Shown here piece after piece: positions 388 to 15,816 of a stretch of DNA of 64,000 bases. Each line of letters begins with the position of its first letter. Positions within the stretch are counted from its first letter, which is position 1. The stretch lies in the NCBI RefSeq assembly GCF_003334305.1, contig NZ_QOWS01000017.1; one strand, written 5' to 3'. Source of the stretch: Escherichia coli (GTDB taxonomy: Bacteria; Pseudomonadota; Gammaproteobacteria; Enterobacterales; Enterobacteriaceae). The notes beneath the pieces are model-generated. The model saw nothing but the letters and a program-made list of their open reading frames with translations. It had not been told where the DNA came from and ran no database searches. Position numbers and translations under genes: made by a program.

Positions 388-2721
388 ATGAAAATGAACG
401 TAACCGCCACCGTCAGCCATGCACTCGGCCACTGGCCGCGTATTCTCCCGGCGCTGGGGATTCAGGTGCTGAAAAACCGTCATCAGCCCTGTCCGGTCTG
501 TGGCGGGAGTGACCGCTTCCGTTTTGATGACAGGGAGGGGCGCGGCACCTGGTACTGCAATCAGTGTGGTGCCGGTGACGGCCTGAAACTGGTTGAAAAG
601 GTGTTTGGTGTTTCCCCGTCCGACGCGGCCGCAAAGGTGGCTGCCGTGACCGGCAGCCTGCCACCGGCTGACCCGGCAGTGACGGCCGCCGCCGTTGCTG
701 AAACAGACGCTGCCCGGAAGAACGCCGCCACACTGGCACAAACCCTGATGGCGAAAACCCGTACCGGAACCGGTAACGCCTACCTGACCCGCAAGGGCTT
801 TCCCGGCCGGGAATGCCGGATGCTGACCGGCACACACAGAGCCGGTGGCGTGAGCTGGCGCGCCGGTGACCTTGTGGTGCCACTGTATGACGACAGCGGC
901 GAACTGGTTAACCTTCAGTTAATCAGTGCTGACGGCCGTAAGCGCACCCTGAAAGGCGGACAGGTCAGGGGCACCTGTCACACCCTTGAAGGACAGAATC
1001 AGGCCGGAAAACGTCTGTGGATAGCGGAGGGATACGCGACCGCACTTACCGTACATCACCTGACCGGTGAAACGGTGATGGTGGCGCTTTCTTCCGTGAA
1101 CCTCCTTTCTCTGGCCAGCCTTGCCCGGCAGAAGCATCCGGCCTGTCAGATTGTCCTTGCCGCAGACCGTGACCTCAGCGGTGACGGCCAGAAAAAAGCC
1201 GCCGCAGCCGCAGATGCGTGTGAGGGCGTTGTTGCCCTGCCGCCGGTCTTCGGTGACTGGAATGATGCCTTCACGCAGTACGGCGGGGAGGCCACCCGTA
1301 AGGCCATTTACGATGCCATCCGGCCACCGGCTGAAAGCCCGTTCGACACCATGAGCGAAGCAGAGTTTTCCGCCATGAGTACCAGCGAAAAGGCCATGCG
1401 TATCTATGAGCATTACGGTGAGGCGCTCGCGGTCGATGCCAACGGCCAGCTTCTGTCTCGCTATGAAAATGGTGTCTGGAAGGTGCTGCCGCCACAGGAC
1501 TTTGCCCGGGATGTGGCCGGGCTGTTTCAGCGTCTGCGCGCGCCGTTCTCCTCCGGGAAGGTGGCCTCCGTGGTGGACACCCTGAAGCTGATTATTCCGC
1601 AGCAGGAAGCCCCCTCCCGCCGCCTGATTGGCTTTCGTAACGGTGTGCTCGACACACAGAACGGCACGTTCCACCCGCACAGTCCGTCACACTGGATGCG
1701 CACCCTGTGCGATGTGGATTTCACCCCGCCGGTGGACGGTGAAACGCTGGAGACCCACGCCCCCGCGTTCTGGCGCTGGCTTGACCGTGCCGCCGGTGGC
1801 CGTGCGGAAAAACGCGACGTGATTCTGGCCGCACTGTTTATGGTGCTGGCAAACCGCTATGACTGGCAGCTCTTTCTGGAGGTGACCGGTCCCGGCGGCA
1901 GCGGCAAAAGTATCATGGCCGAAATAGCCACCCTGCTGGCCGGGGAGGATAACGCCACGTCGGCCACCATTGAGACGCTGGAATCCCCGCGTGAACGTGC
2001 CGCGTTAACTGGCTTCTCACTGATACGCCTGCCGGACCAGGAAAAATGGAGCGGCGACGGTGCCGGACTCAAGGCCATCACCGGCGGCGATGCGGTGTCC
2101 GTTGACCCGAAATACCGGGATGCATACTCCACGCATATCCCGGCGGTGATTCTGGCCGTGAACAATAACCCGATGCGCTTCACCGACCGCAGCGGCGGCG
2201 TGTCACGCCGGCGGGTGATTATTCACTTCCCGGAACAGATAGCCCCGCAGGAGCGCGACCCGCAGCTTAAGGACAAAATCACCCGCGAGCTGGCGGTCAT
2301 CGTGCGTCACCTGATGCAGAAGTTCAGCGACCCGATGCTCGCCCGGTCACTGCTTCAGTCCCAGCAGAACTCAGACGAGGCGCTGAACATCAAACGGGAT
2401 GCCGACCCGACGTTTGATTTTATCGGCTATCTGGAAACCCTGCCGCAGACCAGCGGCATGTATATGGGGAACGCCAGTATCATCCCGCGTAATTACCGTA
2501 AATACCTCTATCACGCCTATCTGGCCTACATGGAGGCAAACGGCTACCGGAATGTACTCAGTCTGAAAATGTTCGGGCTGGGGCTGCCGGTGATGCTGAA
2601 GGAATACGGACTGAATTACGAGAAGCGCCATACCAAACAGGGGATACAGACCAACCTGACGCTGAAAGAGGAAAGCTACGGCGACTGGCTGCCAAAATGT
2701 GACGACCCTGCAACAACCTGA
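388..2721 (+). CDS. P4 alpha-type bifunctional primase/helicase
   Basis: 777-aa ORF with AAGGAG RBS; N-terminal zinc ribbon CPVCGG...YCNQCG; Walker A GPGGSGKS at about aa 500; architecture and length match satellite phage P4 alpha as I recall it. Confidence 0.9.
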   Translation: MKMNVTATVSHALGHWPRILPALGIQVLKNRHQPCPVCGGSDRFRFDDREGRGTWYCNQCGAGDGLKLVEKVFGVSPSDAAAKVAAVTGSLPPADPAVTAAAVAETDAARKNAATLAQTLMAKTRTGTGNAYLTRKGFPGRECRMLTGTHRAGGVSWRAGDLVVPLYDDSGELVNLQLISADGRKRTLKGGQVRGTCHTLEGQNQAGKRLWIAEGYATALTVHHLTGETVMVALSSVNLLSLASLARQKHPACQIVLAADRDLSGDGQKKAAAAADACEGVVALPPVFGDWNDAFTQYGGEATRKAIYDAIRPPAESPFDTMSEAEFSAMSTSEKAMRIYEHYGEALAVDANGQLLSRYENGVWKVLPPQDFARDVAGLFQRLRAPFSSGKVASVVDTLKLIIPQQEAPSRRLIGFRNGVLDTQNGTFHPHSPSHWMRTLCDVDFTPPVDGETLETHAPAFWRWLDRAAGGRAEKRDVILAALFMVLANRYDWQLFLEVTGPGGSGKSIMAEIATLLAGEDNATSATIETLESPRERAALTGFSLIRLPDQEKWSGDGAGLKAITGGDAVSVDPKYRDAYSTHIPAVILAVNNNPMRFTDRSGGVSRRRVIIHFPEQIAPQERDPQLKDKITRELAVIVRHLMQKFSDPMLARSLLQSQQNSDEALNIKRDADPTFDFIGYLETLPQTSGMYMGNASIIPRNYRKYLYHAYLAYMEANGYRNVLSLKMFGLGLPVMLKEYGLNYEKRHTKQGIQTNLTLKEESYGDWLPKCDDPATT

Positions 2722-2728
2722 CCCACCT

Positions 2729-3070: not shown

Positions 3071-3184
3071 ATTTTTAATTGTGCGAAAAACAAGCGACAC
3101 ACGCAGTGTGTATAGATATGTGTATAGTTATATTTTTTGAATATTATAATGTATTACAAATCAATGTGTTAGCTTGTAATATTC

Positions 3185-3203
3185 ACTCCTATTATCGGCA
3201 CCA
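3185..3203 (+). other. att core copy (tRNA-Thr 3'-end-like, ACTCCTATTATCGGCACCA)
   Basis: 19-nt string matching the T-arm-to-CCA end of thrW as I recall it; no full tRNA upstream; second copy at 15262-15279. Confidence 0.6.
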
Positions 3204-3808: not shown

Positions 3809-3967
3809 ATGAAAAACATTGCAGCTATCAAACGGAATAACCGCAAGATTCACGCTCGTAAGTTCCTGTCTACGCCAGAAGGAAAAGCCTGGCTAGAGCG
3901 TAAACAGAGAGAAAACGAAGAAAGAAAACTCCTTAGTGAGTTGAAATGGCTTAGAGAGGATTTCTGA
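3809..3967 (+). CDS. small basic protein (52 aa), hypothetical
   Basis: ATG with AGAGG-like RBS; Lys/Arg-rich; below the size cut-off of the ORF track; translated by hand. Confidence 0.3.
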   Translation: MKNIAAIKRNNRKIHARKFLSTPEGKAWLERKQRENEERKLLSELKWLREDF

Positions 3968-4300: not shown

Positions 4301-4713
4301 CCCTTCCCTTATGGCTAGATTGCGAGAAGTGCTTAACGCGATTTTCAGCGCCCCCCGATCTGGAAAATCCAGAATCCCCAAATATCAGCAAGGAATTTTC
4401 TTGCGTAATCAACATCGTTTTTACCTATTAAATCATTACACAGAAAGCCTTTCTGTAATGTCTCTCACTAAACTTTCACTAAACACGAGAATGATCGGTT
4501 TTATGTCGGATCAGATGCTAGAAATAGCACCACGTCTCACAAGGGCTGTAAGCGATGAAACCAGTGTTTATGCGGGTGCAGGTCAAAATATAGGCCAAAA
4601 TACATTTAACATAATAAACGTAATATGCACTAAGGAACACATAGAACGCCTTGAGTTGATGTATCAGGGGAAAAGTGGTGGATTTTTTACGTAGGAGCAC
4701 GAGAGGGCTTCTA

Positions 4714-4741: not shown

Positions 4742-5088
4742 AGAAGGTTTTTTTATGTTGATAGTGATTGCACATTAAAGATTGAAAGCAAATTTAAACA
4801 TAAATTTTCAACACGTGAAAGAGAACTTGTTCGACAAATGATAAAACGTTTATTGAGCAACAATTTTGCAGTGATGCGCTATATGCCGAATTACACAAGG
4901 CTTTGCGAAAGTGATGTAAAAGTGAAGAAAGTAAGAATTGCAACTTTAAGCTACTTTTCATTGAATTTTTTAGTATGGAATTACACAGGAATAAGTTAGG
5001 GATATTCTATGATTTACACAGGGAATATAGGGGGATTATGGCACACACATAGAAAGACATTACACAAAGTGCTATGTGACAAATGGAT

Positions 5089-5300
5089 GTAACGAGAGGT
5101 TACATTCAGCTATCTGAAATGCTCTCTGTAAGAAAGTTGGTAGTAACGATATGTTACATAGACTAATTATTGAATGTAACGATATTACACATCGGTAGTA
5201 ACGATACGTTACATCGACTAATTATTGAATGTAACGATATTACACATCGGTAGTAACGATACGTTACATCGACAGATGATTGGATGTAACGAAAGGTTAC
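5089..5300. repeat. array of seven 15-bp palindromic sites GTAACGA(t/a)A(t/c)GTTAC (iteron/operator/centromere-like)
   Basis: Sites start at 5089, 5143, 5176, 5198, 5231, 5253 and 5286; spacings 54/33/22/33/22/33 bp are all near multiples of 11 bp; includes a 56-bp unit repeated in tandem. Confidence 0.8.
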
Positions 5301-6398
5301 ACAATAAGACTATATTATTTATAATACTAAATAAAACTATATTAGATTATTAATTAGATCATAATAATATTCTTTATATCTATATATATGATCTTTTGCC
5401 TTCCGGCGTTAGCTTCACTCCCTGGCAAGCAGCCTTACTCCGCTACCTTTCGGGCTACGTTGGCTGGCCCGTTCCGCTCACACCGAAAGCAAAGCGTTAC
5501 TTTCTTCGTGTAACTATCGTGGCGGTAACGCCCACGAAGAAATACTATTGCGCTGTGCGCAGAAGAGTAATCACCTAACCAATCATAGATTGCTTATGTG
5601 TTAACTCTCTCTACCTCTTAATTCCACTTCCTACATTTAATAACTCTGTTATTCTCTGTAGTTGTGTAATTACTCGAAGAGAGAGCGGCTAAAGCTCAAT
5701 TACACTCTGCTTTCCTCGTGTAAGTTCACTAAGCCTCAATACAATTTCACTTCCTACATTCTGTAGTCGTGTAATTGTTTTCGGTGGAAAAGCCAGAGGC
5801 GACACCGAAAGAGAATTCTGATCTTATTAATCTTATCTATCTTAGTTAATCTTCTTACTTTATCTACTTTATTATTAATAATAGCTTTATAAGCTCTGTG
5901 TAGCTCTCTGACGCAAGAAACAGCATTCAGGAAGGGAATCACCTTAGAAAAGGTGTTCTTTGCGTCATAATGTGTTTTATGAAGGATTCAGAGGTGTTTC
6001 ATAACAGGAATGTATAGAGGATATTTTAATTAATTAAAAATAAGGGGTCTAAATGCTTCTCTAACAACATTAAGCAGGGTAGGGAATGGAAACGCATTGC
6101 CTACATATAATAAGCTCACTACAGGGCTTTACAGAGCGTTTTATAAAGTGACTCTCTGTTTTATATTTACCATTACCTTTTCATATACCTAACAAATACA
6201 AAATAAGCCCCTTCAATAAGCCTCTGGCGAGCGAAACAGCCATTAGATAAGGGAATGTATTGCTTTTATCAAAATCTCGTCAGAATGCGATTGAGAGTGT
6301 TTTAGCGGATAATGAAGAATAGCACTACATAGAAGAGCACGAATTGTTAAGCAAAATCATAACATACTGAAAAAGATCAGTTTTTTTGTGAAAAGGTA

Positions 6399-6554: not shown

Positions 6555-6731
6555 ATGAAATATTTCACTCCACAGGATGTAGTAGAAGCCTGGAAACGTG
6601 GTGAGATCAACCGCTTTAAAGTAAGGATGTATAGAAACACCGCTCGCCGTTGTGGTTATCCAGAGCGTGAAAAATGTTTTGACGATGCACTGAAAATTAT
6701 TGATGAACTGCGTAAAGCTGAGAAAGAATAA
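6555..6731 (+). CDS. hypothetical small protein (58 aa)
   Basis: AAGGAGG RBS 6 nt upstream of ATG; first gene after the promoter; translated by hand. Confidence 0.5.
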   Translation: MKYFTPQDVVEAWKRGEINRFKVRMYRNTARRCGYPEREKCFDDALKIIDELRKAEKE

Positions 6732-6753
6732 TAGACAAGAGAAGGAGAAAACT

Positions 6754-6921
6754 ATGAGCGAAACTAAGAAACCAATTCCGCGCACTTACCTTCACGTTGA
6801 CCCTGAAATCTTCAAGGTTTTATTTGCTGAAGCCAAGAAAAGGCAAATTATGGTCAGTGATTTGATGTTAGAAATCATTACTGAAGCAGCAGAGAACATC
6901 AAACAAAAAAAGGGTAAGTGA
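6754..6921 (+). CDS. ribbon-helix-helix-like DNA-binding protein (55 aa)
   Basis: GAAGGAG RBS; N-terminal beta-strand-like segment (RTYLHV) followed by two short helices, an Arc/CopG-type pattern; inferred from sequence pattern only. Confidence 0.5.
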   Translation: MSETKKPIPRTYLHVDPEIFKVLFAEAKKRQIMVSDLMLEIITEAAENIKQKKGK

Positions 6922-6974: not shown

Positions 6975-7718
6975 ATGTCTAAAATTAAATTGATTCGTGA
7001 AAAATACCAGTATGTTGATAAACAAACAGGAGAAATTAAAGACCGAACTTTGAATATACCGCATTACTTTTGTGAGATTGAATTTATCTACTCCTCAAGT
7101 GTTGATGGTGGAAAAGTTAAGTTTAGTGCAGAAATGCAAAAATTATATTGCTATGTTTCAGATTGGGAGAAATCAGGGGGGATATGTTTTGAAACACAAA
7201 CGAAGTTAAGTAAAGTTTGTGGCTGTAGCCGTAAGACAGTTAATGAACTGATTGGTCTTATGATTAAAATCGGTCTTTTAGAAGAGGTCGGAGAACGAAT
7301 TCCAAAACGTCCTTTAAAATTACGTGCGCTACCTCTCACAGATGCACATATTACTCCCCCAGGAGAATCATCACTCTCTGATCTTTCTGAGGCAGAAGAA
7401 GCACAGGAACAACCTAAAGGCCATAAACAGCCTTCTTTTGATGTTCTTGATGATTGGGATGCGCCTTTACCGTGGGAGACGGAAGAAACACCTGTTTCAT
7501 CAAGTGAAAAGGTAGCTAATGATAATGAGGAGGATGTATTAGAGAATTTTGCCTCTCTTATCATCCAGGAGAAACACACAAGAACAGGAGGAGCATCATT
7601 TATTGAGTTTGCAAATTCACTAGCTTATAGATACGGGCTAAAACGACCAAATGGTATTGAGGCATATTTTTCTAAGAATTACCCAAATGTATATGATGAA
7701 TTTGATATTCCCTTTTAA
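6975..7718 (+). CDS. winged-helix DNA-binding protein with acidic linker (247 aa), possible replication initiator or regulator
   Basis: AAGGAG RBS; helix-turn-helix-like segment LSKVCGCSRKTVNELIGLMIKIGLLEE; Asp/Glu-rich middle; stop overlaps the next RBS. Confidence 0.55.
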   Translation: MSKIKLIREKYQYVDKQTGEIKDRTLNIPHYFCEIEFIYSSSVDGGKVKFSAEMQKLYCYVSDWEKSGGICFETQTKLSKVCGCSRKTVNELIGLMIKIGLLEEVGERIPKRPLKLRALPLTDAHITPPGESSLSDLSEAEEAQEQPKGHKQPSFDVLDDWDAPLPWETEETPVSSSEKVANDNEEDVLENFASLIIQEKHTRTGGASFIEFANSLAYRYGLKRPNGIEAYFSKNYPNVYDEFDIPF

Positions 7719-7748
7719 TAAGGAGGACTATGATTCAATATTTAGTAA

Positions 7749-8141: not shown

Positions 8142-8558
8142 ATGGCAAAAAGAAAAAACAACGTTGTTAAGAAAATCGGTGATTCAGCTTCTCTTCTAAG
8201 TAAACCTAAACCTAAATCTATTCTAAGACGTAAAGACTTTAAAGAGCTAGTTACGCTCACCAAGCAAAATAGCGCCCCTGGCGAATGGAAAACAGAGATC
8301 ATAGAACATTCTCCCTCTGTGCCTTGTGGAGATGAATTTAACGCCTTGCAAGAAATCTTATCTTCAACACCTGGCGTATTCTGGAAACCTAGAAAAAGAA
8401 AAGAGTATATCGTTGATAGCTCTGATTTACGCAAATACCAGATTTTAGGATTTGAAGATTATAACCACTACGTCGGTTATCTCGCCACCAATGGCCTAAA
8501 TAATTTAGTTCCTGAATTCCAAATTTTAGATAATGCTGATCACTATGGAGACTTTTAA
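8142..8558 (+). CDS. hypothetical protein (138 aa), basic N-terminus
   Basis: ATG preceded by AAAGGAAAAG; no motif recognised. Confidence 0.5.
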   Translation: MAKRKNNVVKKIGDSASLLSKPKPKSILRRKDFKELVTLTKQNSAPGEWKTEIIEHSPSVPCGDEFNALQEILSSTPGVFWKPRKRKEYIVDSSDLRKYQILGFEDYNHYVGYLATNGLNNLVPEFQILDNADHYGDF

Positions 8559-8559
8559 T

Positions 8560-8898
8560 ATGAACAAAAACACGTATGACACAATTTATTCACTAATTAA
8601 TTATTATGAGGATGATTACCTCCTGCCTTTAAACCGCGCTGAACTTGAAGCATACAAAGAAAACACGCCAGGGGCGCTAAATGAGGCGTTTAAACACTGG
8701 GATTTAGCTGTGAATGCCTTTGAGCACCTTTCTAAAAGAGTAGAGATGCTCTGTAAGCGTGAAAACGCATACCTGACAGCCGATCAGATATGGGAGCTAT
8801 CAAACTGGATAGAAGATATTGAATCTGATGTTCGCTATGTAGGGGATGGCCTGGTTGAATTAGCTCAACGCTTAGGCGCTACTATCACAGAAGAATAA
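8560..8898 (+). CDS. hypothetical acidic protein (112 aa)
   Basis: ATG 8560 with GGAG 7 nt upstream, 1 nt after the previous stop; an in-frame upstream ATG at 8533 would overlap the previous gene. Confidence 0.5.
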   Translation: MNKNTYDTIYSLINYYEDDYLLPLNRAELEAYKENTPGALNEAFKHWDLAVNAFEHLSKRVEMLCKRENAYLTADQIWELSNWIEDIESDVRYVGDGLVELAQRLGATITEE

Positions 8899-8927
8899 AA
8901 AAAGCAACAAAAAAGTTGTAAAATATC

Positions 8928-8956
8928 TTGACATTCCATCTATTGTATGTTAATAT
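8928..8956 (+). promoter_or_regulatory. candidate sigma70 promoter (TTGACA-17-TAATAT)
   Basis: Consensus -35; located in a 350-bp gap inside the operon. Confidence 0.45.
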
Positions 8957-9093
8957 AATTATATAGGGGTGATTATTTTTCCTTTATTGGTTCGATATTA
9001 AAAATTCTTCCTGTCATTAAAGGGGAGTAAAATCTCCGCTCCCCGCTTCTCCTCCTTAAGTAAATACTGTGTCATTATACCTCTTTTTTCCTT

Positions 9094-9125
9094 TGTTATG
9101 CATACATCTTGGAGTATGCATAACA
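9094..9125. promoter_or_regulatory. 12-bp perfect inverted repeat TGTTATGCATAC-N8-GTATGCATAACA (operator or RNA hairpin)
   Basis: Read directly; lies between the 8928 promoter and the next gene. Confidence 0.6.
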
Positions 9126-9165
9126 TAGGGTAATTACATAGGTATGAGTTAATAAAAGGCGGCTC

Positions 9166-9189
9166 TAAATGCTGCCTTTTATTTTGCCC
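9166..9189 (+). terminator. weak intrinsic terminator or attenuator
   Basis: AGGCGGC-tctaaat-GCTGCCT stem with one G-U pair, followed by TTTTATTTT. Confidence 0.4.
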
Positions 9190-9247
9190 GTTATGCAACT
9201 TAAAAGTTGTATTTCTTACTTTAAAAAAGGTAACAAGGTTTATATAA

Positions 9248-9460
9248 ATGTTGTTTTTAAACGATAAAGAGCAAATCATCAAGTATAAAGATGAAATGCT
9301 GAAAATTAATCCACAAATTACCGAAATGGTAGCTAAATACGCTGGGTGTTCTGTCGAGGAAGTAGAAAGATGTGTTGAAAAATATTTTTCTCCTTCTACT
9401 CCGTCTACACCTTCCCTTAATGAATTAATCAAATTAAAAGCTAAGGAGATTACTAAATGA
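9248..9460 (+). CDS. hypothetical protein (70 aa)
   Basis: ATG with AAGG upstream; stop overlaps the start of the next gene (ATGA). Confidence 0.5.
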   Translation: MLFLNDKEQIIKYKDEMLKINPQITEMVAKYAGCSVEEVERCVEKYFSPSTPSTPSLNELIKLKAKEITK

Positions 9461-9819
9461 TTATTGATTTAGACACTCTGTTTCCAGTTAGAAAGACTTT
9501 CACAGATATTGTAAGTTATTGTACTGATCCGTTTGCCTCTGTAGAAAGCAAGGTTTTTGCTTCTCTTCCTGCTGATGTTGAGTGCGGCGACTTGATCACC
9601 AGTACTGGCGCTAAATATGAATCAGGAGATGATATCTATGTTGTTATGAGTGAATTTGTAACGGCTGGAGAAAACAAGCCTGTAGATGTGCTACGTAGTA
9701 ATGCTGGTCTTGTCTGCATCAAAGCTGATGCGCTGAATGCTGTAAGTGAAGCAGCAAAAACAGCATTAATTAAAAAAGGCTTCCAGCTTGAAGGGTTCCA
9801 TTCTGTTTTCACTTCTTAA
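9457..9819 (+). CDS. hypothetical protein (120 aa)
   Basis: AAGGAG RBS; translationally coupled to the upstream ORF. Confidence 0.55.
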   Translation: MIIDLDTLFPVRKTFTDIVSYCTDPFASVESKVFASLPADVECGDLITSTGAKYESGDDIYVVMSEFVTAGENKPVDVLRSNAGLVCIKADALNAVSEAAKTALIKKGFQLEGFHSVFTS

Positions 9820-9837
9820 TAAAAGGAATAATAATAA

Positions 9838-10869
9838 ATGATTCTAGGTAATGATTACGTTGATTTAGCTCCGCTTTTCCAGGCACACAGCACTAGAAAC
9901 TTTCTGCTCTCTACCCTCGACTTCACTGATCCGGTGGGCGTTAGTTCTCATAAAGTAGCTGTTTCTCAGCTTGTCGAAAGCAACGAATCTCTGTTCAACA
10001 AAGAAACCTCTCGTTTCTCTTCTGAACACAATGTTACTAAGCGTGAACAAGGTAAAGAATGGCTGATTGAAATCCCGTATTTTCTTCGTGAAGATGTGAT
10101 CCGTCCTTCTGATGTTCAAGGCAAGCGTAAGCCTGGCACTGATTTTCAGGAAACACTCACTGATATCTATGCGGAATATATCGCTAAACACCACGTAGCG
10201 TATCAGCGTACAAAAGAGAGCGTGTTGGCTGCATCTCTGTTTAGCGGTAAAACTTACACGCCTAAAACTGATGATGTTCTTATCGAGTGGGGCAAGCTGT
10301 TTAACGTGGCACCTATGAAAGCCACCTTGAACGCTTCCAGCACTGACACAATGACCGTTTTCAAGCAATTTGACCAGCTTGCTACGGATATGATTGCTAA
10401 GGCACAAAACCAGGCTGCAACCATTGAGCGTGTTGTTGTGTTCTGTAAACCTGCGGCATTCAACGCTATTCGTTACAGTGTTGGTATGGTCAATGCTTTC
10501 CAATATGCAAGCCCTGTAGACGATGCCAACGTGGTGTTTAATGTGCGTTCCCTGCTACCAGGTGTAACTACTTTCACCATTCCAGGAACTAACATTGACC
10601 TGATCAAAGTGACTGATCCGCTACACCTTGCACATATGGCTTCTGATGCGGTTGCTGTGCCTAAATTCGCTAAGGGGGCAGGTGTTTACCAATCTATCTA
10701 TGGGGCAGCTTCCAGCACCTTTGAACTGATCAATGCCGCTCCTGCTGAGGTGTATAGCTATAGCTATGAATCTTCTTCTCGTGGTGATGCTGTTAACGTT
10801 GTTACAGAGAATAGCCAGATGGTGGTAAACCACGGCGTTGGTTTCTCCGTTCAAATCACTGTTAAATAA
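9838..10869 (+). CDS. hypothetical protein (343 aa), no motif recognised
   Basis: Long ORF in AT-rich DNA with AAGGA RBS; followed by a strong terminator. Confidence 0.65.
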   Translation: MILGNDYVDLAPLFQAHSTRNFLLSTLDFTDPVGVSSHKVAVSQLVESNESLFNKETSRFSSEHNVTKREQGKEWLIEIPYFLREDVIRPSDVQGKRKPGTDFQETLTDIYAEYIAKHHVAYQRTKESVLAASLFSGKTYTPKTDDVLIEWGKLFNVAPMKATLNASSTDTMTVFKQFDQLATDMIAKAQNQAATIERVVVFCKPAAFNAIRYSVGMVNAFQYASPVDDANVVFNVRSLLPGVTTFTIPGTNIDLIKVTDPLHLAHMASDAVAVPKFAKGAGVYQSIYGAASSTFELINAAPAEVYSYSYESSSRGDAVNVVTENSQMVVNHGVGFSVQITVK

Positions 10870-10887
10870 TATTTTAACGTGTAATAG

Positions 10888-10925
10888 AGGCGTGGCGTGA
10901 ATAACACGCTTCGCCTTTTTTTATT
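10888..10925 (+). terminator. rho-independent terminator
   Basis: Nested hairpin AGGCG-tg-GCGTG-aataa-CACGC-tt-CGCCT followed by a T-rich run. Confidence 0.65.
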
Positions 10926-10955
10926 TATTTTTAAATTTTGAGAGGTGATTAAAAT

Positions 10956-11159
10956 ATGGAAGTGATTCTGAAATCAAAAAATGGTGTACACGTTTATTTA
11001 GATGCTAATGATTCAAGAGGCTTGTTAAATCTGAAATATCTATGTTCTCTCTTGGATGTTCCATATGAAGGCGTAAAAGCCCGAATGTTCAGATTAAACG
11101 AGAGTATTGATCAAGCTCTACACCATTTCTTAAGCAAAGAAGGTGGTAAAAATGATTAA
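10956..11159 (+). CDS. hypothetical protein (67 aa)
   Basis: GAGAGGTGA RBS; 15 bp upstream of the 612-aa gene. Confidence 0.45.
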   Translation: MEVILKSKNGVHVYLDANDSRGLLNLKYLCSLLDVPYEGVKARMFRLNESIDQALHHFLSKEGGKND

Positions 11160-11173
11160 TAAGGGGATTTTAA

Positions 11174-13012
11174 ATGTTAGAAATTAACACTTCTAAAATT
11201 AAGAACACAGTAACATTTAGTGTAGATAAAGACAGCTTGAAAAAAGCGAAAGACTCTATTACAGGCTTAAAGGAATTCACAGAAAACATCAAGCCAGCTA
11301 AATTAAGGTTTGATAGTGTCACTAAAGGCTATAAGAAAGCACAAAGCGAAGTAGACAAGATTGCTCAACAGAAAGCTAAAACAGAAAAGCAGAATCAAAG
11401 AGCACAAGCTGCCGCAGCAAGAGCACAGGCAAGGCAACAGACACAAATAGCAGCACGTAAAGAGAAAGCAGAATTAAAGCTCCTCGATGTGTCAAGCTCT
11501 ATCAGTGCAATGCACCGCCTCTCTGTAGCGGAACAATACAAAGCTATTGCACAGGCTAGAGAGATAGCAAAACAATATGAGCAAGGGGCTATCTCGCTTG
11601 CACGTATGAATAGTCAGATGAAACGCCTACAACAGCAACAACGTAAGATTAATGGCAACAGAAAAGCTCAATTAGCCCCCGTTAAGGGAGGAGGATCAGG
11701 GAATTCCGCCACGATGGGTGCTCTGTTATTTGGAGGCGCTACAGCGGCTGCTGGCGTGATGGCTGTTAGTAAAGCGTCGGAGTTTGTTAGTAACAGTTTC
11801 GCTAACGCAGAGACACAAGGTGAGCTAATTCAACGTGCAAGGCTTGGCGGTGTAGACGTTAACCAGATGTACAACATTACAGAATGGGCCTATAGAAACG
11901 GCGTTGACTCTATGATGGGTGATCAAGGGGCTAGGAAATACCTGGATCAGATGAAAGATGTTAGGGAACGTGCCGCAAAATCCTATAGTGAAGCTGAATA
12001 TGTAGTCGATAAAAAAACTGGTAAAGGCGGCGAATGGAAAGGCGGTGATAACGCTATTAATGAACTTCTAAACATCGGTGTTATTAACAAGAGCGACCTT
12101 AAAAAATTTGCTGATAATCCAGCCGGATTAATTTCTAAGGCTGTTAATGGAATGATGAAAAAAGGGTTTTCAGACTCCCAAATTGGACAACGTTTAGAAG
12201 ACCTGGGTGATGATTTGATGCTTACATCAAAATATTGGCAACGTTCCGTTAAAGATGTACAAACAAGCATCGAGCAGCAAAAAGCCTCTGGAAAATGGCT
12301 AACAGAAACACAGCAAGATTCTATTGTTAAATTCAGAGAACTAAACAGACAGCTTTCACAGCTTTCTGATGCAAGACAAGTAGCATTTGTAGACGGCTTT
12401 ATGAAATCTCTCGATCCAAAAGTAACGGAAGAGTTTATGAAAAACCTTTCTAATCTCACTCCGTATTTTACAAAGCTGGGAGAAGCTACAGGAAGTCTCT
12501 TTGAAGCTATTATGAAGATTGTAAACTGGTTTAATCGTAATGATGATAAGACAGATGCTATTCAGAAAAATTTAGGTGATGCACCGCCATTAAGCAATGA
12601 AGGAATGAAACAGAATCTTTCTAATCTCGTTCCTGATCAATATAAAGGCGCTGGCACCGGAACAACTAAGCCAGATAACAGCAATTCCCTGTTTAACACT
12701 ATTAAGGGATTGCTTTTCGATGATAAGTCTTCTTCTGTGTCAGATGTAAAAATGTCAGTCAGCGAAGCACCGATAACCAATCTCAAACAGGGCGCTTTAA
12801 ATAATCTTGCAATGACAACTCCGGCTTATAATTTATCTCCTGTGTTTAATCTGAATCCTACATTTGAAGTGGTAACAGAGGTTCCTCTTACTATTAATTC
12901 TGACACATCAAGATTAAGCGATTATGTGGATTTTACAGCGAGATCAAGTCGGGATAGCTTCTTGAAATCATTAACATTAACCAGCTTATCAGGACAATCT
13001 AACGGCGGGTAA
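11174..13012 (+). CDS. large coiled-coil protein with central Gly-rich hydrophobic segment (612 aa); tape-measure-like or membrane-interacting, function unknown
   Basis: AAGGGG RBS; N-terminal approx. 150 aa rich in Q/A/R/K/E; segment GGGSGNSATMGALLFGGATAAAGVMAV; no NTP-binding or catalytic motif seen. Confidence 0.7.
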   Translation: MLEINTSKIKNTVTFSVDKDSLKKAKDSITGLKEFTENIKPAKLRFDSVTKGYKKAQSEVDKIAQQKAKTEKQNQRAQAAAARAQARQQTQIAARKEKAELKLLDVSSSISAMHRLSVAEQYKAIAQAREIAKQYEQGAISLARMNSQMKRLQQQQRKINGNRKAQLAPVKGGGSGNSATMGALLFGGATAAAGVMAVSKASEFVSNSFANAETQGELIQRARLGGVDVNQMYNITEWAYRNGVDSMMGDQGARKYLDQMKDVRERAAKSYSEAEYVVDKKTGKGGEWKGGDNAINELLNIGVINKSDLKKFADNPAGLISKAVNGMMKKGFSDSQIGQRLEDLGDDLMLTSKYWQRSVKDVQTSIEQQKASGKWLTETQQDSIVKFRELNRQLSQLSDARQVAFVDGFMKSLDPKVTEEFMKNLSNLTPYFTKLGEATGSLFEAIMKIVNWFNRNDDKTDAIQKNLGDAPPLSNEGMKQNLSNLVPDQYKGAGTGTTKPDNSNSLFNTIKGLLFDDKSSSVSDVKMSVSEAPITNLKQGALNNLAMTTPAYNLSPVFNLNPTFEVVTEVPLTINSDTSRLSDYVDFTARSSRDSFLKSLTLTSLSGQSNGG

Positions 13013-13046
13013 TTCCCGCCATAACATTACAAGGAAAATTATTATT

Positions 13047-13760
13047 ATGGCGACCGCCGGGATTTTAACCATACGTGCAGCAAATACTCCAGAACAACAC
13101 GTTCAGGCTGTTTACAAAGCAGAACAAGATATAAATTCTACAAAAAACGAAAATAGCAAAGCTAATAAAACAAAAGGAGAGAACGGATTTGCTATTGTTA
13201 CCAGTGGCTTGGCATCTTCTGGCAATGACGTTTATGAAAATTATATGGCCCTGGCCTTTGACAGTGTAGACGATGTGAACGTGAGACGTTCGGCAGATGT
13301 CACAAGCTACCCCGTAGAAAATGGTGCTACTGTGTCTGATCACGTTCAAATTAAAAACAATAAGTTTTCTCTTAAAGGAAGGATCACTGAAACACCGATT
13401 AAAAGCGATCCTGGCTTGTTAAAGAGTGCAGGGGTGAACGGGAACAGAAGATCATTAGCCATAGACTACTTGAATCAGATTATGGACAGTAGACAGCCTT
13501 TTCTTCTTGTTACAGAAAATAAAACTTTTGAGAACGTTGTTTTAACAGGCATCGAATACACAGAAGAGGCAAGCGAATCCCTGGTATTTGATCTTAGCTT
13601 TGAGCAGATCAGATTAGTTTCTTATGGCACTGTATCCACTATTGCACTTAAAACACAACCATCTAAGAACATCGGGGCGAATATGAAAAAACGTGTTAAC
13701 ACTGAAAAATCAAGTAGTGAAGGTGAAGACACTATTACTCCTGCCTTTAAGCAGAAATAG
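13047..13760 (+). CDS. hypothetical protein (237 aa)
   Basis: AAGGA RBS; last gene of the + strand operon, convergent with the integrase. Confidence 0.6.
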   Translation: MATAGILTIRAANTPEQHVQAVYKAEQDINSTKNENSKANKTKGENGFAIVTSGLASSGNDVYENYMALAFDSVDDVNVRRSADVTSYPVENGATVSDHVQIKNNKFSLKGRITETPIKSDPGLLKSAGVNGNRRSLAIDYLNQIMDSRQPFLLVTENKTFENVVLTGIEYTEEASESLVFDLSFEQIRLVSYGTVSTIALKTQPSKNIGANMKKRVNTEKSSSEGEDTITPAFKQK

Positions 13761-13803
13761 CCGTAAACGCCTCTAAAACGCTCTGTAACGATGTAATTAT
13801 AAA

Positions 13804-13840
13804 AGAGGCTGCCAATCTATGTTGAAGCCTCTTTATTGTG
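13804..13840. terminator. bidirectional terminator between convergent operon and integrase
   Basis: AGAGGCT-N15-AGCCTCT hairpin flanked by T-rich runs on both strands. Confidence 0.5.
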
Positions 13841-13841
13841 T

Positions 13842-15176
13842 TTATGGCGTTGTTTTACGCCTTAAATTTGATTTTTTATTGATTGATAAGCCTTTCTCTA
13901 TTTCAGGGTAGCGTAGAAGCTCAATATAGTTTTTAAGCTCTACTGGAGAAGCTGCATTCTTGCTATATGTGCGGAATGTCTCTGTATTGCCGCGTGTATG
14001 GCCCAGGAGAAGGGCGATCCTGTCTTCTGGAATTTGATTTCGATCAAGAAGCTGTGCTACTCCGTGTCTCAGAGAATGAAACACTTTCCTTTCTGTTCCC
14101 TTTTCCCCTAAAGCCTTTCGTTTAGCTCTTGTAAATCTCTGCGTGTGCCACGTGGAACGTTTACCATCAGCACGCTCTGTAATGCTGGCGTGATAGAACA
14201 AAAAGCCATTATGAGGCTTTTCACGCAGCGACAACACCAACGGAGTGATAAGGCTATGTACAGGCACAACACGTGCCGCAGCTTTCGTTTTTCCCTGTGT
14301 GATTTCAAAACACAGCACACCTTCGATCTCTTTCACATCGTCTATTGTGAGACTTGCTATCTCATTGATCCGCATACCTGTATATAAACCGATAAGACAC
14401 AAAGCCATCATTTCTTTGTTTTCTGCTGAATTACCGGAAAATACTTGCAACACCTGCAATAGCTCTTTGTTAGAAAATGCCTCGTAGCTCTCTCTACTTT
14501 GTGCCACATCAAGCCTATGCCCTCGCCAGGGGGAGAGCGCCCTTTCTGGCGCATCGTGGTAACGTGATGAAGCTAACTCCCATAGCTGGGCTATTGGGCT
14601 GATATAATTTGCAATTGATTGTTGTGAAAGAGTTTTTTGCATGTGTTCTATCCAGCCTGTAACAGTGGTGCGGCTCACATCTTGCAATGCAATATCAGGC
14701 TTTTTACGGTAGGAGAGAAACATCTCTACCGCTTTTCTTGCCTTAGCTAAAGTGGCTGGCTTCTTCTTCGTGCTGTTAATTGTCAGGTAGATTTCAAGAA
14801 TTTTAAGCAATGACGGACACGAAGACGCTGTATCTTGCATTCTGGTAGCTGTTTTGGCGTATTTAGCCTTACTGCGTAACAGCTCCAGCGTGTTCTCTAT
14901 TGTGCTGTTTACAGGGGCGACACTCTCCCGTAGGCAATGGTATTCATCTGCAATCTGATCACGCTTTCTACGTGCAACACGAAGATTATTTGTGTGTAGA
15001 CTTCTGACAAACGTCCTTTTTCCTTCAAAAAAGGGCTGCATATACACAGGCAGCGTGATCCTTAAATAGTAGTTACCGTAAGAATCACAGATTAAGTATT
15101 GGTTAGGCTTGTATCTCATAAAATCTCCGGCTAAAGTGTCGGAGCGTTTGTAATGTGAAAATTGATTGTAACGCAT
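13842..15176 (-). CDS. tyrosine-type site-specific integrase
   Basis: Box I GMRINE, box II HSLRHG, LLGH, and a C-terminal tyrosine in TFRTYS; ATG at 15176 (a TTG at 15206 gives the 454-aa track ORF); sits directly inside the right att copy. Confidence 0.85.
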   Translation of the reverse strand: MRYNQFSHYKRSDTLAGDFMRYKPNQYLICDSYGNYYLRITLPVYMQPFFEGKRTFVRSLHTNNLRVARRKRDQIADEYHCLRESVAPVNSTIENTLELLRSKAKYAKTATRMQDTASSCPSLLKILEIYLTINSTKKKPATLAKARKAVEMFLSYRKKPDIALQDVSRTTVTGWIEHMQKTLSQQSIANYISPIAQLWELASSRYHDAPERALSPWRGHRLDVAQSRESYEAFSNKELLQVLQVFSGNSAENKEMMALCLIGLYTGMRINEIASLTIDDVKEIEGVLCFEITQGKTKAAARVVPVHSLITPLVLSLREKPHNGFLFYHASITERADGKRSTWHTQRFTRAKRKALGEKGTERKVFHSLRHGVAQLLDRNQIPEDRIALLLGHTRGNTETFRTYSKNAASPVELKNYIELLRYPEIEKGLSINKKSNLRRKTTP

Positions 15177-15218
15177 AGAAAATGATAATTTTTCTATAAG
15201 ATTCAATCAATTAGTAAT

Positions 15219-15279
15219 GGTCGTAGGTGATGGCATTAACACGAGATTAATCGAGTGTTTTACTCCTATTATCGCACCA
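15219..15279 (+). pseudogene. tRNA-Thr 3'-half remnant (ptwF-like) containing the right att core copy
   Basis: GGTCGTAGGT, then a 33-nt unrelated insert, then ACTCCTATTATCG-CACCA; not a foldable tRNA. Confidence 0.55.
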
Positions 15280-15405
15280 TTAAAATCAAAGAGTTACCCC
15301 ATATTTAAATACACCACGTTTCCTCCTGTGCCGCATTTGTGCCATTGTAACCTTGGCAATTCATCAAAATACTGTTCTGACATCAGGCAGTGCAGGTGCA
15401 GCTAT

Positions 15406-15816
15406 TTAAACCAATTGCTGCCGCCATTCTTTGACGTAGTCAATCAGGGCGCGGAGCTTTGGTGCAATATTGCGACGCTGTGGGAAATACAGATAGAAGC
15501 CCGGAAATTGTGGAAGAAAGTCATCAAGCAGCGATACAAGCTTACCGCTTTCAATATATGGCCTGAAAGTTTCCTGAGTGGCAATTGTTATTCCTCCGCC
15601 GGCAAGAGCCAGCCTCAACATCAGACGCAGATCATTAGTCGTAATCTGCGGTTCAATCGCAAGGTCGAAAGTTCTCCCGTTTTCTTCAAATGGCCAGCGA
15701 TAAGGCGCAACCTCCGGGGACTGACGCCAGCCGATACACTTATGGGTATTTCCCCCGGAGGCGAGAAAGCGCTCTCCACGCCCGGCCGCAAGGATCAGGA
15801 CGACGGGGGCAGGCAT
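15406..15816 (-). pseudogene. yagP: LysR-family regulator fragment (C-terminal substrate-binding domain only)
   Basis: 136-aa reading frame from MPAPVV... matching the yagP remnant as I recall it; no N-terminal HTH domain present; overlaps the paoD 3' end. Confidence 0.6.

What the first reader, a model, noticed from the sequence alone, without database searches (positions are those of the whole stretch)
11174..13012. 612-aa coiled-coil protein with a Gly-rich hydrophobic core but no accompanying virion genes
The N-terminal ~150 residues are Q/A/R/K/E-rich heptad-like sequence, followed by GGGSGNSATMGALLFGGATAAAGVMAV and a long polar C-terminal region. This recalls phage tape-measure or membrane-inserting pilot proteins, yet no terminase, portal, recognisable capsid, sheath or tube gene is nearby. 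It could be a membrane-associated effector or sensor of a novel system, or the remnant of a structural module.
Basis: partly seen in the sequence, partly recalled or inferred. Interest (0 to 1): 0.55.

Follow-up and report, generated by a model that had tools for sequence, protein, structure and literature searches.

The report
Tape-measure gene of a probable phage satellite
The 612-residue protein is a tail tape-measure protein carried, with a capsid gene and a tail-tube initiator gene, by a 12-kb island in the E. coli thrW tRNA gene that looks like an undescribed parasite (satellite) of the large lytic phi92-like phages.

Summary
The ORF is real (11174..13012, 612 aa), and so are its helical Q/A/R/K/E-rich N-terminus and Gly-rich hydrophobic segment. 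The claim that no virion genes accompany it is wrong. A Phage_cap_E major capsid gene ends 305 bp upstream. A Dit-like tube-initiator gene, 61% identical to phi92 gp135, starts 35 bp downstream.

The protein aligns end to end with the tape measure proteins (TMPs) of the virulent 145-150 kb Stephanstirmvirinae myoviruses (phrog_16051 4e-54; phi92 gp134 is a chain of PDB 21vq).

It sits in a 12.08-kb, 38.7% GC element bounded by thrW-derived att repeats. The element has an integrase, an iteron origin and a wHTH Rep-like protein, but no portal, terminase, sheath or tube gene.

This architecture recurs in deeply diverged lineages, with TMP dN/dS of 0.13-0.21. The TMP gene occurs in 481 of 5426 complete E. 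coli genomes.

The element also carries a 46-bp copy of the phi92 terminal-repeat boundary. Phage inny encodes a nuclease fused to near-identical copies of the islands' Rep DNA-binding domains, as ICP1 Odn does against PLE.

Best reading: a structural TMP of a new satellite family that parasitises phi92-like phages. No experiment supports this yet.

The parts
3181..3203 (+). Left attachment repeat (attL): a copy of the 3' end of tRNA-Thr thrW, ATTCACTCCTATTATCGGCACCA. It separates the upstream P4-like element from this island.
   Evidence: In L008 and L009 the same position is the 3' end of the intact thrW gene.
3809..3967 (+). Conserved 52-aa ORF at the left end of the island (WP_000788777); function unknown.
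   Evidence: Annotated in A7 and at the same position in L009; a near-identical ORF is present in L008 and L010. No PHROG hit.
4314..4359 (-). 46-bp block, 43/46 identical to phi92 nt 318-363, which straddles the right boundary (nt 343) of the phage's 343-bp direct terminal repeat. Candidate mimic of a terminase recognition or cleavage (pac-like) site.
   Evidence: blastn against phages, E 1e-8, found only in about 145-154 kb phi92-like phages. Alignment; DTR annotation. Present in L009 and L010. The phi92 ORF across it is only 30 aa, so the conservation is not coding.
5084..5395 (.). Probable replication origin: five copies of the palindromic iteron TGTAACGA-N3-5-GTTACA in 55-bp units (5084-5303), followed by a stretch of about 90 bp that is almost pure A+T.
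   Evidence: Other island variants carry different iterons at the same place, and these co-vary with the N-terminal domain of the Rep-like protein.
6555..6921 (+). Two small ORFs (58 aa at 6555..6731; 55 aa at 6754..6921) at the start of the early operon. A sigma-70-like promoter lies upstream at 6399-6427.
   Evidence: The 55-aa protein is 100% identical over 53 aa to phage inny gp185.
6975..7718 (+). 247-aa winged-HTH (HTH_36-type) replication-initiator-like protein. The N-terminal DNA-binding domain is variable between islands; the C-terminal domain is shared.
   Evidence: PHROG replication-initiation families, 9e-07 and weaker. Domain swapping. N-terminal 145 aa 88% identical to phage inny gp184.
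8142..8898 (+). Two ORFs of unknown function (138 aa at 8142..8558; 112 aa at 8560..8898).
   Evidence: No family hits. The 138-aa protein has a 29%-identical counterpart in the O104:H4-type island.
9248..9460 (+). 70-aa ORF, first gene of the capsid/tail operon. A promoter-like site lies at 8928-8956.
   Evidence: An ORF of similar size sits at this position in all lineages examined, although it is only about 25% identical between the two E. coli clades.
9457..9819 (+). 120-aa protein, probably a capsid decoration or cement protein.
9838..10869 (+). 343-aa major capsid protein of the lambda gpE-like (Phage_cap_E) family, followed by a terminator-like hairpin at 10894-10910.
   Evidence: Only 20% identical to phi92 gp124; best phage hits are Pakpunavirus at 23%. 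dN/dS 0.12.
10956..11159 (+). 67-aa protein always found immediately upstream of the TMP gene (abutting or overlapping it in other lineages). Function unknown; the C-terminal half looks HTH-like by eye.
   Evidence: Unrelated to phi92 gp133, which occupies the same position in the phage. dN/dS 0.09.
11174..13012 (+). THE FINDING: a 612-aa tail tape measure protein homologue.
   Evidence: phrog_16051 4.4e-54. End-to-end BLASTP against the phiWec188 TMP, 1e-59. PDB 21vq_V Phi92_gp134, 3.4e-201 with the family profile. dN/dS 0.13-0.21. Present in 481 of 5426 complete E. coli genomes.
13047..13760 (+). 237-aa Dit-like tail-tube initiator (baseplate hub ring protein).
   Evidence: 61% identical to phi92 gp135, 2e-92. 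PF21821 6.9e-29. PDB 21vq_N Phi92_gp135 3.1e-78; 9cuy_K 'tube initiator protein' and 7yfz_a 'Pam3 tube initiator gp17'.
13842..15119 (-). Tyrosine integrase (425 aa as annotated in RefSeq), 98-99% identical between island clades.
15258..15279 (+). Right attachment repeat (attR): TTTTACTCCTATTATCGCACCA, a thrW 3' fragment with a 1-bp deletion in this strain. The island spans 3204-15279, 12,076 bp, 38.7% GC.

Best explanation
The protein is a genuine tail tape measure protein (TMP). It is a core gene of a 12-kb integrative element in thrW that I interpret as a satellite of virulent Stephanstirmvirinae myoviruses (phi92/Justusliebigvirus, Phapecoctavirus).

Proposed mechanism, all of it inferred:
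1. When a helper phage infects, the island excises and replicates from its iteron origin using its own wHTH Rep-like protein.
2. It expresses its capsid operon: a decoration-like protein and its own MCP.
3. It expresses its tail-core pair: the TMP and the Dit-like tube initiator.
4. The TMP's N-terminal 30 residues and its C-terminal tail are the parts most conserved with the phage TMPs. This would let it dock with helper parts. By analogy with solved myophage tails, which I cite from memory, the C-terminus would sit in the hub and tube-initiator cavity and the N-terminus at the head-proximal end.
5. Helper tube and sheath subunits would then polymerise around a satellite-encoded ruler that is about 40 residues shorter than the phage's.
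6. The 12-kb genome would be packaged by the helper terminase through the copied terminal-repeat-boundary site.

My confidence by step:
- It is a TMP homologue: about 0.97.
- The element is a satellite-type parasite of these phages: about 0.75.
- The TMP is built into tails used by the satellite, rather than acting mainly as a poison: about 0.45-0.5.
The single confidence value given for this explanation (0.55) is for the whole chain taken together.
For: SHOWN BY TOOL RESULTS

(1) TMP homology.
- phrog_16051 'tail length tape measure protein', 4.4e-54.
- Full-length alignment to the phiWec188 TMP, 1e-59.
- The family profile hits PDB 21vq_V Phi92_gp134 at 3.4e-201 and 9cuy_W 'putative tape measure protein' at 8e-10.
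- Only 73 clusters at 50% identity among 1.84 billion proteins match; the full-length ones are 578-668 aa.

(2) Position-specific conservation.
- Residues 1-30 are 59% identical to phage TMPs, residues 241-300 and 331-360 about 36-47%, and residues 601-612 40%. The coiled-coil ruler region is 8-19% identical.
- Phage TMPs carry 45-aa and 21-aa insertions in the ruler region.
- Satellite clusters are 596-636 aa, the phage cluster 634-659 aa.

(3) Functional partner next door.
- The downstream gene is 61% identical to phi92 gp135, a chain of the same PDB entry as gp134. It belongs to the tube-initiator family.

(4) Element anatomy.
- att repeats derived from thrW.
- Integrase.
- Iterons plus an AT-rich stretch.
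- Rep-like wHTH protein.
- GC 38.7% against 52.8% for the chromosome and 38.1% for phi92.
- No portal, terminase, sheath or tube gene.

(5) The same architecture recurs in diverged lineages and other loci: L008, L009, L010, L011, L013, L014.

(6) Purifying selection: TMP dN/dS 0.13-0.21, MCP 0.12, Dit-like 0.20, the 67-aa protein 0.09.

(7) Links to the phage group at DNA level.
- A 46-bp block, 43/46 identical to the phi92 DTR boundary.
- 625 bp at 97.6% identity to phage inny.

(8) Signature of a phage counter-measure.
- Phage inny gp184 combines an HTH domain 88% identical to this island's Rep DNA-binding domain, a second HTH domain 89% identical to the O104:H4-type island's, and a GIY-YIG-clan nuclease domain (phrog_681 3.9e-18; Pfam MUG113 5e-4).
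- Island Rep N-domains and iterons are swapped as modules.
- This is the pattern shown experimentally for ICP1 Odn against PLE RepA and ori (PMC8263062).

INFERRED: induction by the helper, packaging, small capsids, and incorporation of the TMP into tails.
Against: - No experimental evidence of excision, replication, packaging or transfer.
- The excised-circle (attP) junction was not found in JGI metagenome contigs or IMG/VR.
- All IMG/VR hits are prophage-type predictions from isolate genomes, not virome particles.
- The island MCP is only 20% identical to the helper's. It is unclear how it would assemble on a helper portal without its own portal, scaffold or protease.
- The ruler is only about 6% shorter than the phage's, so changing tail length is not an obvious benefit.
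- Two lineages (L013, L014) keep the TMP but lack the Dit-like gene, so the two need not act as an obligatory pair.
- The 46-bp block copies only one of the two DTR boundaries. Its role in phage packaging is itself untested.
- No known satellite is reported to carry a TMP, so this reading has no precedent to lean on.
Confidence: 0.55

Rival explanations
1. Interference or decoy. The island TMP, with or without the tube initiator and MCP, acts mainly as a dominant-negative copy. It enters the helper's baseplate-hub and tube assembly through its conserved termini and yields defective or mis-sized tails. This lowers helper yield and protects the bacterial population, rather than building satellite tails.
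For: - The termini are conserved while the middle of the protein has diverged, which is what a competitor for the same binding partners would need.
- Satellites commonly interfere with helper assembly. Tail-assembly interference by PICI-borne systems is described in PMC11364771 (listed; I read only its abstract).
- Phage inny carries a nuclease apparently aimed at the island, which implies the island is costly to the phage.
Against: - A mobile 12-kb element with its own capsid gene and a pac-like site would still need working tails to spread.
- Purifying selection acts along the whole protein, including a confidently folded central domain at residues 205-390. This suggests more than terminal docking is needed.
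- No match to any PADLOC defence family.
- The two roles are not exclusive.
Confidence: 0.2
2. DNA-delivery adaptation. The TMP is structural, but what is selected is its role after adsorption. As the protein expelled ahead of the DNA, it would open or condition the envelope for the satellite genome, or evade an exclusion system aimed at the helper's TMP. Tail length would not be the point.
For: - The Gly-rich hydrophobic segment is conserved in satellite and phage TMPs alike.
- The ruler length barely differs between them.
- General knowledge, cited from memory: TMPs are ejected and assist DNA transit. This is also stated in the abstract of PMC5099701.
Against: Nothing in the sequence identifies an enzymatic or receptor-binding domain. 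There are no Pfam hits and no structural neighbours. The idea is speculative.
Confidence: 0.1
3. Inert remnant of a decayed prophage structural module, as the first reader suggested as one option.
For: Only a subset of structural genes is present. The locus is the CP4-6-type thrW prophage-graveyard site next to paoD.
Against: - All ORFs are intact.
- dN/dS is 0.09-0.21.
- The same gene set recurs in lineages whose TMPs are only 27-39% identical.
- The nearest phages are virulent 145-150 kb viruses; the regions of them I read hold no integrase, and a temperate relative would be needed to leave a prophage remnant.
- Island size is constant, at 12.08-12.96 kb in the three loci where both att repeats were located.
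Confidence: 0.04
4. Membrane-associated effector or sensor of a novel, non-viral system.
For: A hydrophobic Gly-rich segment at residues 172-198 with borderline membrane-helix hydrophobicity. No Pfam or NCBIfam annotation.
Against: - Full-length homology to virion TMPs.
- The same hydrophobic segment exists in the phage proteins.
- The flanking genes are capsid and tail genes.
Confidence: 0.02

Closest known systems
Tape measure proteins of Stephanstirmvirinae myoviruses (phi92 gp134, PDB 21vq chain V; the Phapecoctavirus phiWec188 TMP)
   Same: - Homologous from the first to the last residue.
- Same domain order: conserved N-terminal 30 aa, helical ruler, Gly-rich hydrophobic segment, conserved central helical domain, conserved C-terminal tail.
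- Followed by the same downstream gene, the gp135-type tube initiator.
   Different: - Only 24-28% identical overall.
- About 40 aa shorter, lacking 45-aa and 21-aa stretches of the ruler.
- Encoded in an integrated 12-kb island rather than a 148-kb virulent phage.
- No tail-assembly chaperone genes upstream. An unrelated 67-aa protein sits there instead.
PLE of Vibrio cholerae and its helper ICP1
   Same: - A small integrated island apparently tied to a virulent myovirus.
- A modular Rep N-domain and iteron replicon, swapped between variants.
- The phage side carries a chimeric protein that joins a copy of the island's Rep DNA-binding domain to a GIY-YIG-clan nuclease, as ICP1 Odn does (PMC8263062).
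   Different: - PLE uses ICP1 coat protein remodelled by TcaP (PMC10002752, abstract). As far as I know it encodes no MCP or tail structural genes of its own; this is from memory.
- This island brings its own MCP, TMP and tube initiator.
- Tyrosine integrase into a tRNA gene.
- No sequence relationship was observed.
Capsid-forming PICIs (cfPICI)
   Same: An integrated island of about 12 kb in Enterobacteria that encodes its own major capsid protein and depends on a helper for the rest of the virion.
   Different: - As I recall them, cfPICIs encode a complete head and packaging set (portal, protease, connectors, small terminase, HNH) and take only tails from temperate helpers.
- This island has no portal, protease or terminase gene, and it does encode tail-core proteins.
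- Its relatives are virulent phages.
P4-like satellites (one lies in tandem at window 1-3180)
   Same: Similar size (about 12 kb), integration into a tRNA gene, and dependence on a myovirus helper. Here both use the same thrW att site, in tandem.
   Different: P4 has no capsid or tail structural genes and resizes the helper capsid with Sid. None of the P4 marker genes (alpha primase, sid, psu, delta, epsilon) lies inside 3204-15279.

Membership tests
Phage tail tape measure proteins (rV5/phi92-type, phrog_16051) | Significant full-length sequence or profile similarity to proteins identified as TMPs | tested here: met
   phrog_16051 4.4e-54. BLASTP 1e-59 over residues 1-610 against the phiWec188 TMP. 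Profile against PDB 21vq_V Phi92_gp134, 3.4e-201.
Phage tail tape measure proteins (rV5/phi92-type, phrog_16051) | Long, mostly alpha-helical protein with a hydrophobic segment | tested here: met
   AlphaFold2 secondary structure is mostly helical, with the N-terminal helices at high confidence. A hydrophobic Gly-rich segment lies at 172-198 and at the aligned place in phage TMPs.
Phage tail tape measure proteins (rV5/phi92-type, phrog_16051) | Gene lies between tail-assembly chaperone genes and baseplate hub or tube-initiator genes | tested here: inconclusive
   The downstream neighbour is the expected tube initiator. The upstream chaperone genes (phi92 gp132/gp133) are absent, and the 67-aa upstream protein is unrelated to gp133.
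Phage tail tape measure proteins (rV5/phi92-type, phrog_16051) | Physically present inside the tail tube, with its length setting tail length | not testable with these tools
   Requires particle purification, mass spectrometry, electron microscopy and ruler-deletion mutants.
Phage satellites (general definition) | Integrative element with its own integrase and att sites, much smaller than a phage genome | tested here: met
   12,076 bp between thrW-derived repeats, with a tyrosine integrase.
Phage satellites (general definition) | Own replication module | tested here: met
   wHTH replication-initiator-like protein. Iterons plus an AT-rich stretch. Modular co-variation of the two. The function itself was not tested.
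Phage satellites (general definition) | Lacks the genes for an autonomous virion | tested here: met
   No portal, terminase, protease or scaffold, sheath, tube, or baseplate wedge or fibre gene was detected in any island ORF with PHROGs, NCBIfam or Pfam.
Phage satellites (general definition) | Induced by, packaged by and transferred with a specific helper phage | not testable with these tools
   Indirect evidence only: the DTR-boundary mimic, 97.6%-identical DNA shared with phage inny and the phage chimeric nuclease. The attP junction was not found in public contigs.
cfPICI | Complete head and packaging module (MCP plus portal, protease, head-tail connectors and small terminase) | tested here: not met
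   Only the MCP and a decoration-like protein are present.
P4-like satellites | alpha primase-helicase together with sid, psu, delta and epsilon | tested here: not met
   These genes occur only in the separate neighbouring element (window 1-3180 and upstream), not inside 3204-15279.

The most novel reading that the evidence does not exclude
Window 3204-15279 is a member of an undescribed family of E. coli/Enterobacteriaceae satellites that parasitise virulent phi92-like/Phapecoctavirus myoviruses, a group I recall being used in phage therapy. Uniquely among known satellites, it would bring both its own capsid protein and its own tail core (tape measure plus tube initiator). It would be locked in a PLE/ICP1-style arms race in which the phages deploy nucleases built from stolen copies of the satellites' Rep DNA-binding domains.
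Probability: 0.55. Interest if true: 0.85.

Novelty: new variant of a known kind. Interest (0 to 1): 0.78.

Why it matters
- If the satellite reading holds, about 9% of complete E. coli genomes (481 of 5426), including the O104:H4 outbreak strain, carry a dedicated parasite of a group of large lytic phages that, as I recall, is popular for therapy and biocontrol. That would affect phage efficacy, host-range tests and the composition of lysates.
- It would be the first satellite known to supply a tape measure and a tube initiator. That opens a direct way to ask what these proteins contribute besides length, such as tail nucleation, DNA delivery or interference.
- It would give E. coli a tractable counterpart of the Vibrio PLE/ICP1 system. 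This would include an apparent phage-encoded origin-directed nuclease with two stolen DNA-binding domains.
- For the narrower question asked, the 'orphan' coiled-coil protein is explained. It is a TMP with capsid and tail neighbours.

Tried and rejected
- Pfam and NCBIfam give nothing for the 612-aa protein.
- Foldseek of the AlphaFold2 model against the PDB returns only helical-repeat noise, with no hit at E <= 0.001.
- The PADLOC defence library returns only a coiled-coil artefact, JetC at 0.0015.
- Rfam finds nothing credible in 2700-15500.
- BLASTP of the 120-aa and 67-aa proteins against phi92 gp123 and gp133 finds no similarity. hhalign of the 67-aa family against the gp133 family gives probability 0.07. 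The positional analogy with gp133 is therefore dropped.
- The 18-kb 'Erwinia phage AnSW2-5-P-A' hit, which might have been a packaged satellite, is an unannotated partial genome and uninformative.
- IMG/VR relatives are all prophage-type predictions from isolate genomes.
- An exact search for the excised-circle junction (attP) found nothing in JGI metagenome contigs or IMG/VR. This is not decisive.
- Only the right DTR boundary of phi92 is matched in the island, not the left one.
- Eight literature searches found no description of a satellite of Stephanstirmvirinae or of a satellite-borne TMP. The library is incomplete, so prior description cannot be excluded.
- I considered whether the 46-bp block is conserved because it is coding: it overlaps the start of the unannotated ORF 4311..4694. 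I rejected this because the phi92 reading frame across it is only 30 aa.
Full report
**1. The observation**

An ATG ORF at 11174..13012 (+) encodes 612 aa. RefSeq annotates the same coordinates as a hypothetical protein in E. coli strain A7, whose chromosome is 100% identical to the window over 9000-15300.

- Residues 41-170 are 60% Q/A/R/K/E, and AlphaFold2 predicts them as long, confident helices.
- The Gly-rich hydrophobic stretch is at residues 172-198.
- The C-terminal third is polar and modelled with low confidence.

That part of the finding stands. The statement that no recognisable capsid gene is nearby does not.

- 9838..10869 is a Phage_cap_E major capsid protein (MCP) (Pfam 4.4e-14; phrog_29).
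- 13047..13760 is a Dit-like tail protein (PF21821 6.9e-29).
- It is true that no terminase, portal, sheath or tube gene is present.

**2. What the protein is**

It matches phrog_16051 'tail length tape measure protein' at 4.4e-54.

A tblastn search of 50,697 phage records finds it in 134 records, nearly all about 145-150 kb virulent myoviruses of the Stephanstirmvirinae: phi92/Justusliebigvirus and Phapecoctavirus. There the hit is the annotated tape measure protein (TMP) inside a complete tail module.

The alignment with the Phapecoctavirus phiWec188 TMP runs from residue 1 to 610 (1e-59). A profile of 35 family members hits PDB entry 21vq chain V, 'Phi92_gp134', at 3.4e-201. The phage homologue has therefore been modelled in a solved structure.

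The family is narrow. Only 73 clusters at 50% identity match among 1.84 billion proteins.

Conservation against the phage TMPs is uneven:

| Region of the 612-aa protein | Identity to phage TMPs |
|---|---|
| Residues 1-30 | 59% |
| Residues 241-300 and 331-360 | 36-47% |
| Residues 601-612 | 40% |
| Helical 'ruler' (31-120 and 151-180) | 8-19% |

The ruler lacks 45-aa and 21-aa stretches that the phage proteins have. The hydrophobic Gly-rich segment is present at the aligned position in the phage TMPs, so it is a family trait and not a sign of a different function.

**3. The neighbours**

- The downstream 237-aa protein is 61% identical to phi92 gp135 (2e-92). gp135 is chain N of the same PDB entry, 21vq. 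The protein also matches chains named 'tube initiator' in 9cuy and 7yfz. The island therefore encodes the ruler and the ring on which the tail tube starts.
- Upstream lie a 67-aa protein of unknown function, the MCP, and a 120-aa protein. The 67-aa protein is unrelated to phi92 gp133.
- The order decoration-like, MCP, small protein, TMP, tube initiator mirrors phi92 gp123, gp124 ... gp133, gp134, gp135. Everything in between is missing: head completion, sheath, tube and chaperone genes.

**4. The element**

- The window lies at the thrW/CP4-6 site next to paoD.
- A copy of the thrW 3' end sits at 3181-3203 and another at 15258-15279. They enclose 12,076 bp of 38.7% GC. The flanking chromosome is 52.8% GC and the phi92 structural region 38.1%.
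- A tyrosine integrase lies at the right end.
- Five palindromic iterons at 5084-5303, followed by an AT-rich stretch, look like an origin.
- A 247-aa winged-HTH protein matches replication-initiator families.
- The high-GC DNA to the left (1-3180) is a separate P4-like satellite, with an alpha primase and TGTTCACC-type repeats. In O104:H4 the two elements occur in the opposite order, so they are independent tenants of the same att site.

**5. It is a family, and it is maintained**

The TMP gene is in 481 of 5426 complete E. coli genomes, in two clades at about 93-100% and about 74% nucleotide identity. It also occurs in E. albertii and E. fergusonii.

The O104:H4 2011C-3493, ETEC-2264 and soil isolate SC455 copies have the same layout and size.

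Representatives only 31-39% identical (P0122, P0124, P0127) sit in the same architecture, one of them at a non-thrW locus. Some have a helicase-type replication gene, and two lack the Dit-like gene.

Pairwise dN/dS values:

| Gene | dN/dS |
|---|---|
| TMP | 0.13-0.21 |
| MCP | 0.12 |
| Tube initiator | 0.20 |
| 67-aa protein | 0.09 |

Modules are mosaic. The integrase is 98% identical between clades, the TMP about 64%, the tube initiator 60%, and the MCP only 19%. Both MCP types still match phrog_29.

Satellite TMPs cluster apart from phage TMPs and are shorter, at 596-636 aa against 634-659 aa.

A decaying prophage would not show this pattern. The nearest phages are also virulent 145-150 kb viruses, and the parts of them I read hold no integrase.

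**6. Direct DNA links to the phage group**

A blastn search of the island's left half against all phages gave two kinds of hit, both confined to phi92-like phages.

First, window 4314-4359 is 43/46 identical to phi92 nt 318-363. The phi92 record annotates a 343-bp direct terminal repeat, so the block straddles its right boundary...CGCGTTA | AGCACC....
- The block lies at the same distance from the left end in other end-defined records, PHB05, W22 and a Klebsiella phage.
- It is present in other island copies.
- It is not explained by coding, because the phi92 frame across it is only 30 aa.
- I read it as a candidate mimic of a terminase recognition or cleavage site. That role is inferred.

Second, window 6742-7367 is 97.6% identical to phage inny, which indicates recent DNA exchange.

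**7. An apparent phage counter-weapon (seen in passing; it supports the satellite reading)**

Phage inny gp184 (367 aa) has three parts:
- An HTH_36 domain 88% identical to this island's Rep-like N-terminal domain.
- A second HTH_36 domain 89% identical to the O104:H4-type island's Rep-like domain.
- A C-terminal GIY-YIG-clan nuclease domain (phrog_681 'endonuclease' 3.9e-18; Pfam MUG113 5e-4, T5orf172 0.13).

Only four phage records have long matches, which fits an accessory arms-race gene.

In the islands, the Rep N-terminal domain and the iterons change together while the C-terminal domain is shared.

This is the pattern shown experimentally for ICP1 Odn and the PLE RepA_N/ori modules (PMC8263062). 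There the nuclease's N-terminal domain is 42% identical to RepA_N, and cutting requires the iterons.

**8. How the TMP most likely works**

Shown: it is a TMP homologue with phage-compatible ends. It is paired with a phage-like tube initiator, in a compact integrative replicon that lacks the other virion genes. It is under purifying selection and tied by DNA identity to phi92-like phages.

Inferred: on helper infection the island replicates, makes its own capsid shell, and supplies the TMP and tube initiator. These nucleate tube and sheath assembly from helper subunits. The genome is then packaged through the terminal-repeat-boundary site.

I put about 0.75 on the satellite reading and about 0.45-0.5 on the TMP being incorporated into the tails the satellite uses.

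Rivals:
- The TMP acts mainly as a dominant-negative decoy (0.2).
- Its selected role is in DNA delivery or in evading exclusion (0.1).
- It is an inert remnant (0.04).
- It is a non-viral membrane effector or sensor (0.02).

Weak points:
- There is no evidence of excision or packaging.
- The MCP is only 20% identical to the helper's, and the island has no portal or scaffold gene.
- The ruler is only about 6% shorter than the phage's.
- Two lineages have no tube-initiator gene.

**9. Comparison with what is known, and novelty**

As a protein it is a new, divergent member of the phi92-type TMP family. As a system it works most like PLE/ICP1, but it fails the defining features of P4-like satellites and cfPICIs (see the membership table). 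As far as I know, PLE has no capsid or tail structural genes of its own.

I found no paper describing a satellite of Stephanstirmvirinae or a satellite-encoded TMP. The library is incomplete, so this is absence of evidence only.

I rate it a new variant of a known kind (phage satellites), with interest 0.78.

Noticed in passing
L006 4233-5336 (phage inny MN850601, gp184); related to window 6975-7409 and L008 5818-6096: A virulent phage protein joins two HTH_36 domains, 88% and 89% identical to the Rep-like DNA-binding domains of the two island types, to a GIY-YIG-clan nuclease domain. It looks like an Odn-type anti-satellite nuclease with dual specificity. Only inny, muut (partial), BI-EHEC and Mt1B1_P17 have long matches.
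   Followed up: partly
window 4314-4359 (minus strand): A 46-bp block 43/46 identical to the right boundary of the phi92 343-bp direct terminal repeat. It is conserved in other island copies and in phi92-like phages of Escherichia, Klebsiella and Citrobacter. Possible packaging-site mimic. It overlaps the start of an unannotated 127-aa ORF (4311..4694).
   Followed up: partly
window 5084-5395; L008 4290-4391; L009 4085-4249; L011 3835-3979: Each island variant has its own iteron set at the equivalent position. The iterons co-vary with the N-terminal domain of the Rep-like protein, while the C-terminal domain is shared (window and L009 81% identical; L008 and L010 also share theirs). This is replicon module swapping.
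   Followed up: partly
window 1-3180: A separate high-GC (57%) P4-like satellite lies in tandem at the same thrW att site. It has a 777-aa alpha primase-helicase at 388..2721 and two 120-nt repeats carrying TGTTCACC-type motifs at 2767-3066. Icd-like and derepression genes lie further upstream in strain A7. In O104:H4 the order of the two elements is reversed.
   Followed up: partly
window 5396-5830: A relatively GC-rich, apparently non-coding stretch inside the AT-rich left half. It carries an 18-nt direct repeat (AATTCCACTTCCTACATT at 5620 and 5743) that is also conserved in L009. There is no Rfam match. It could be a structured RNA or a protein-binding region.
   Followed up: no
window 3204-6550: About 3.3 kb at the left end of the island has almost no annotated genes. 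RefSeq annotates only a 52-aa ORF there, which is unusual for a compact 12-kb element. This stretch contains the terminal-repeat mimic and the origin.
   Followed up: partly
window 9838-10869 against L008 9310-10341: The two E. coli island clades share a 98%-identical integrase, but their 343-aa capsid proteins are only 19% identical. Both still match phrog_29. This points to cassette replacement of the capsid gene, possibly tracking different helpers.
   Followed up: partly
window 10956-11159: A 62-67 aa protein always lies immediately upstream of the TMP gene, abutting or overlapping it in some lineages. Its C-terminal half (LLNLKYLCSLLDVPYEGVKARMFR) looks like a helix-turn-helix by eye. It is unrelated to the phage chaperone-region protein gp133.
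   Followed up: partly
window 15258-15279 and 15406-15744: The right att repeat has a 1-bp deletion relative to other strains (CGCACCA instead of CGGCACCA). It is followed by a truncated LysR-family pseudogene before paoD.
   Followed up: no
phage records MG065639, MG065645, MG065656, MG065689: Several 146-kb records labelled 'Campylobacter phage' give the same match statistics as the Escherichia phi92-like phages in these searches. The host label looks doubtful.
   Followed up: no
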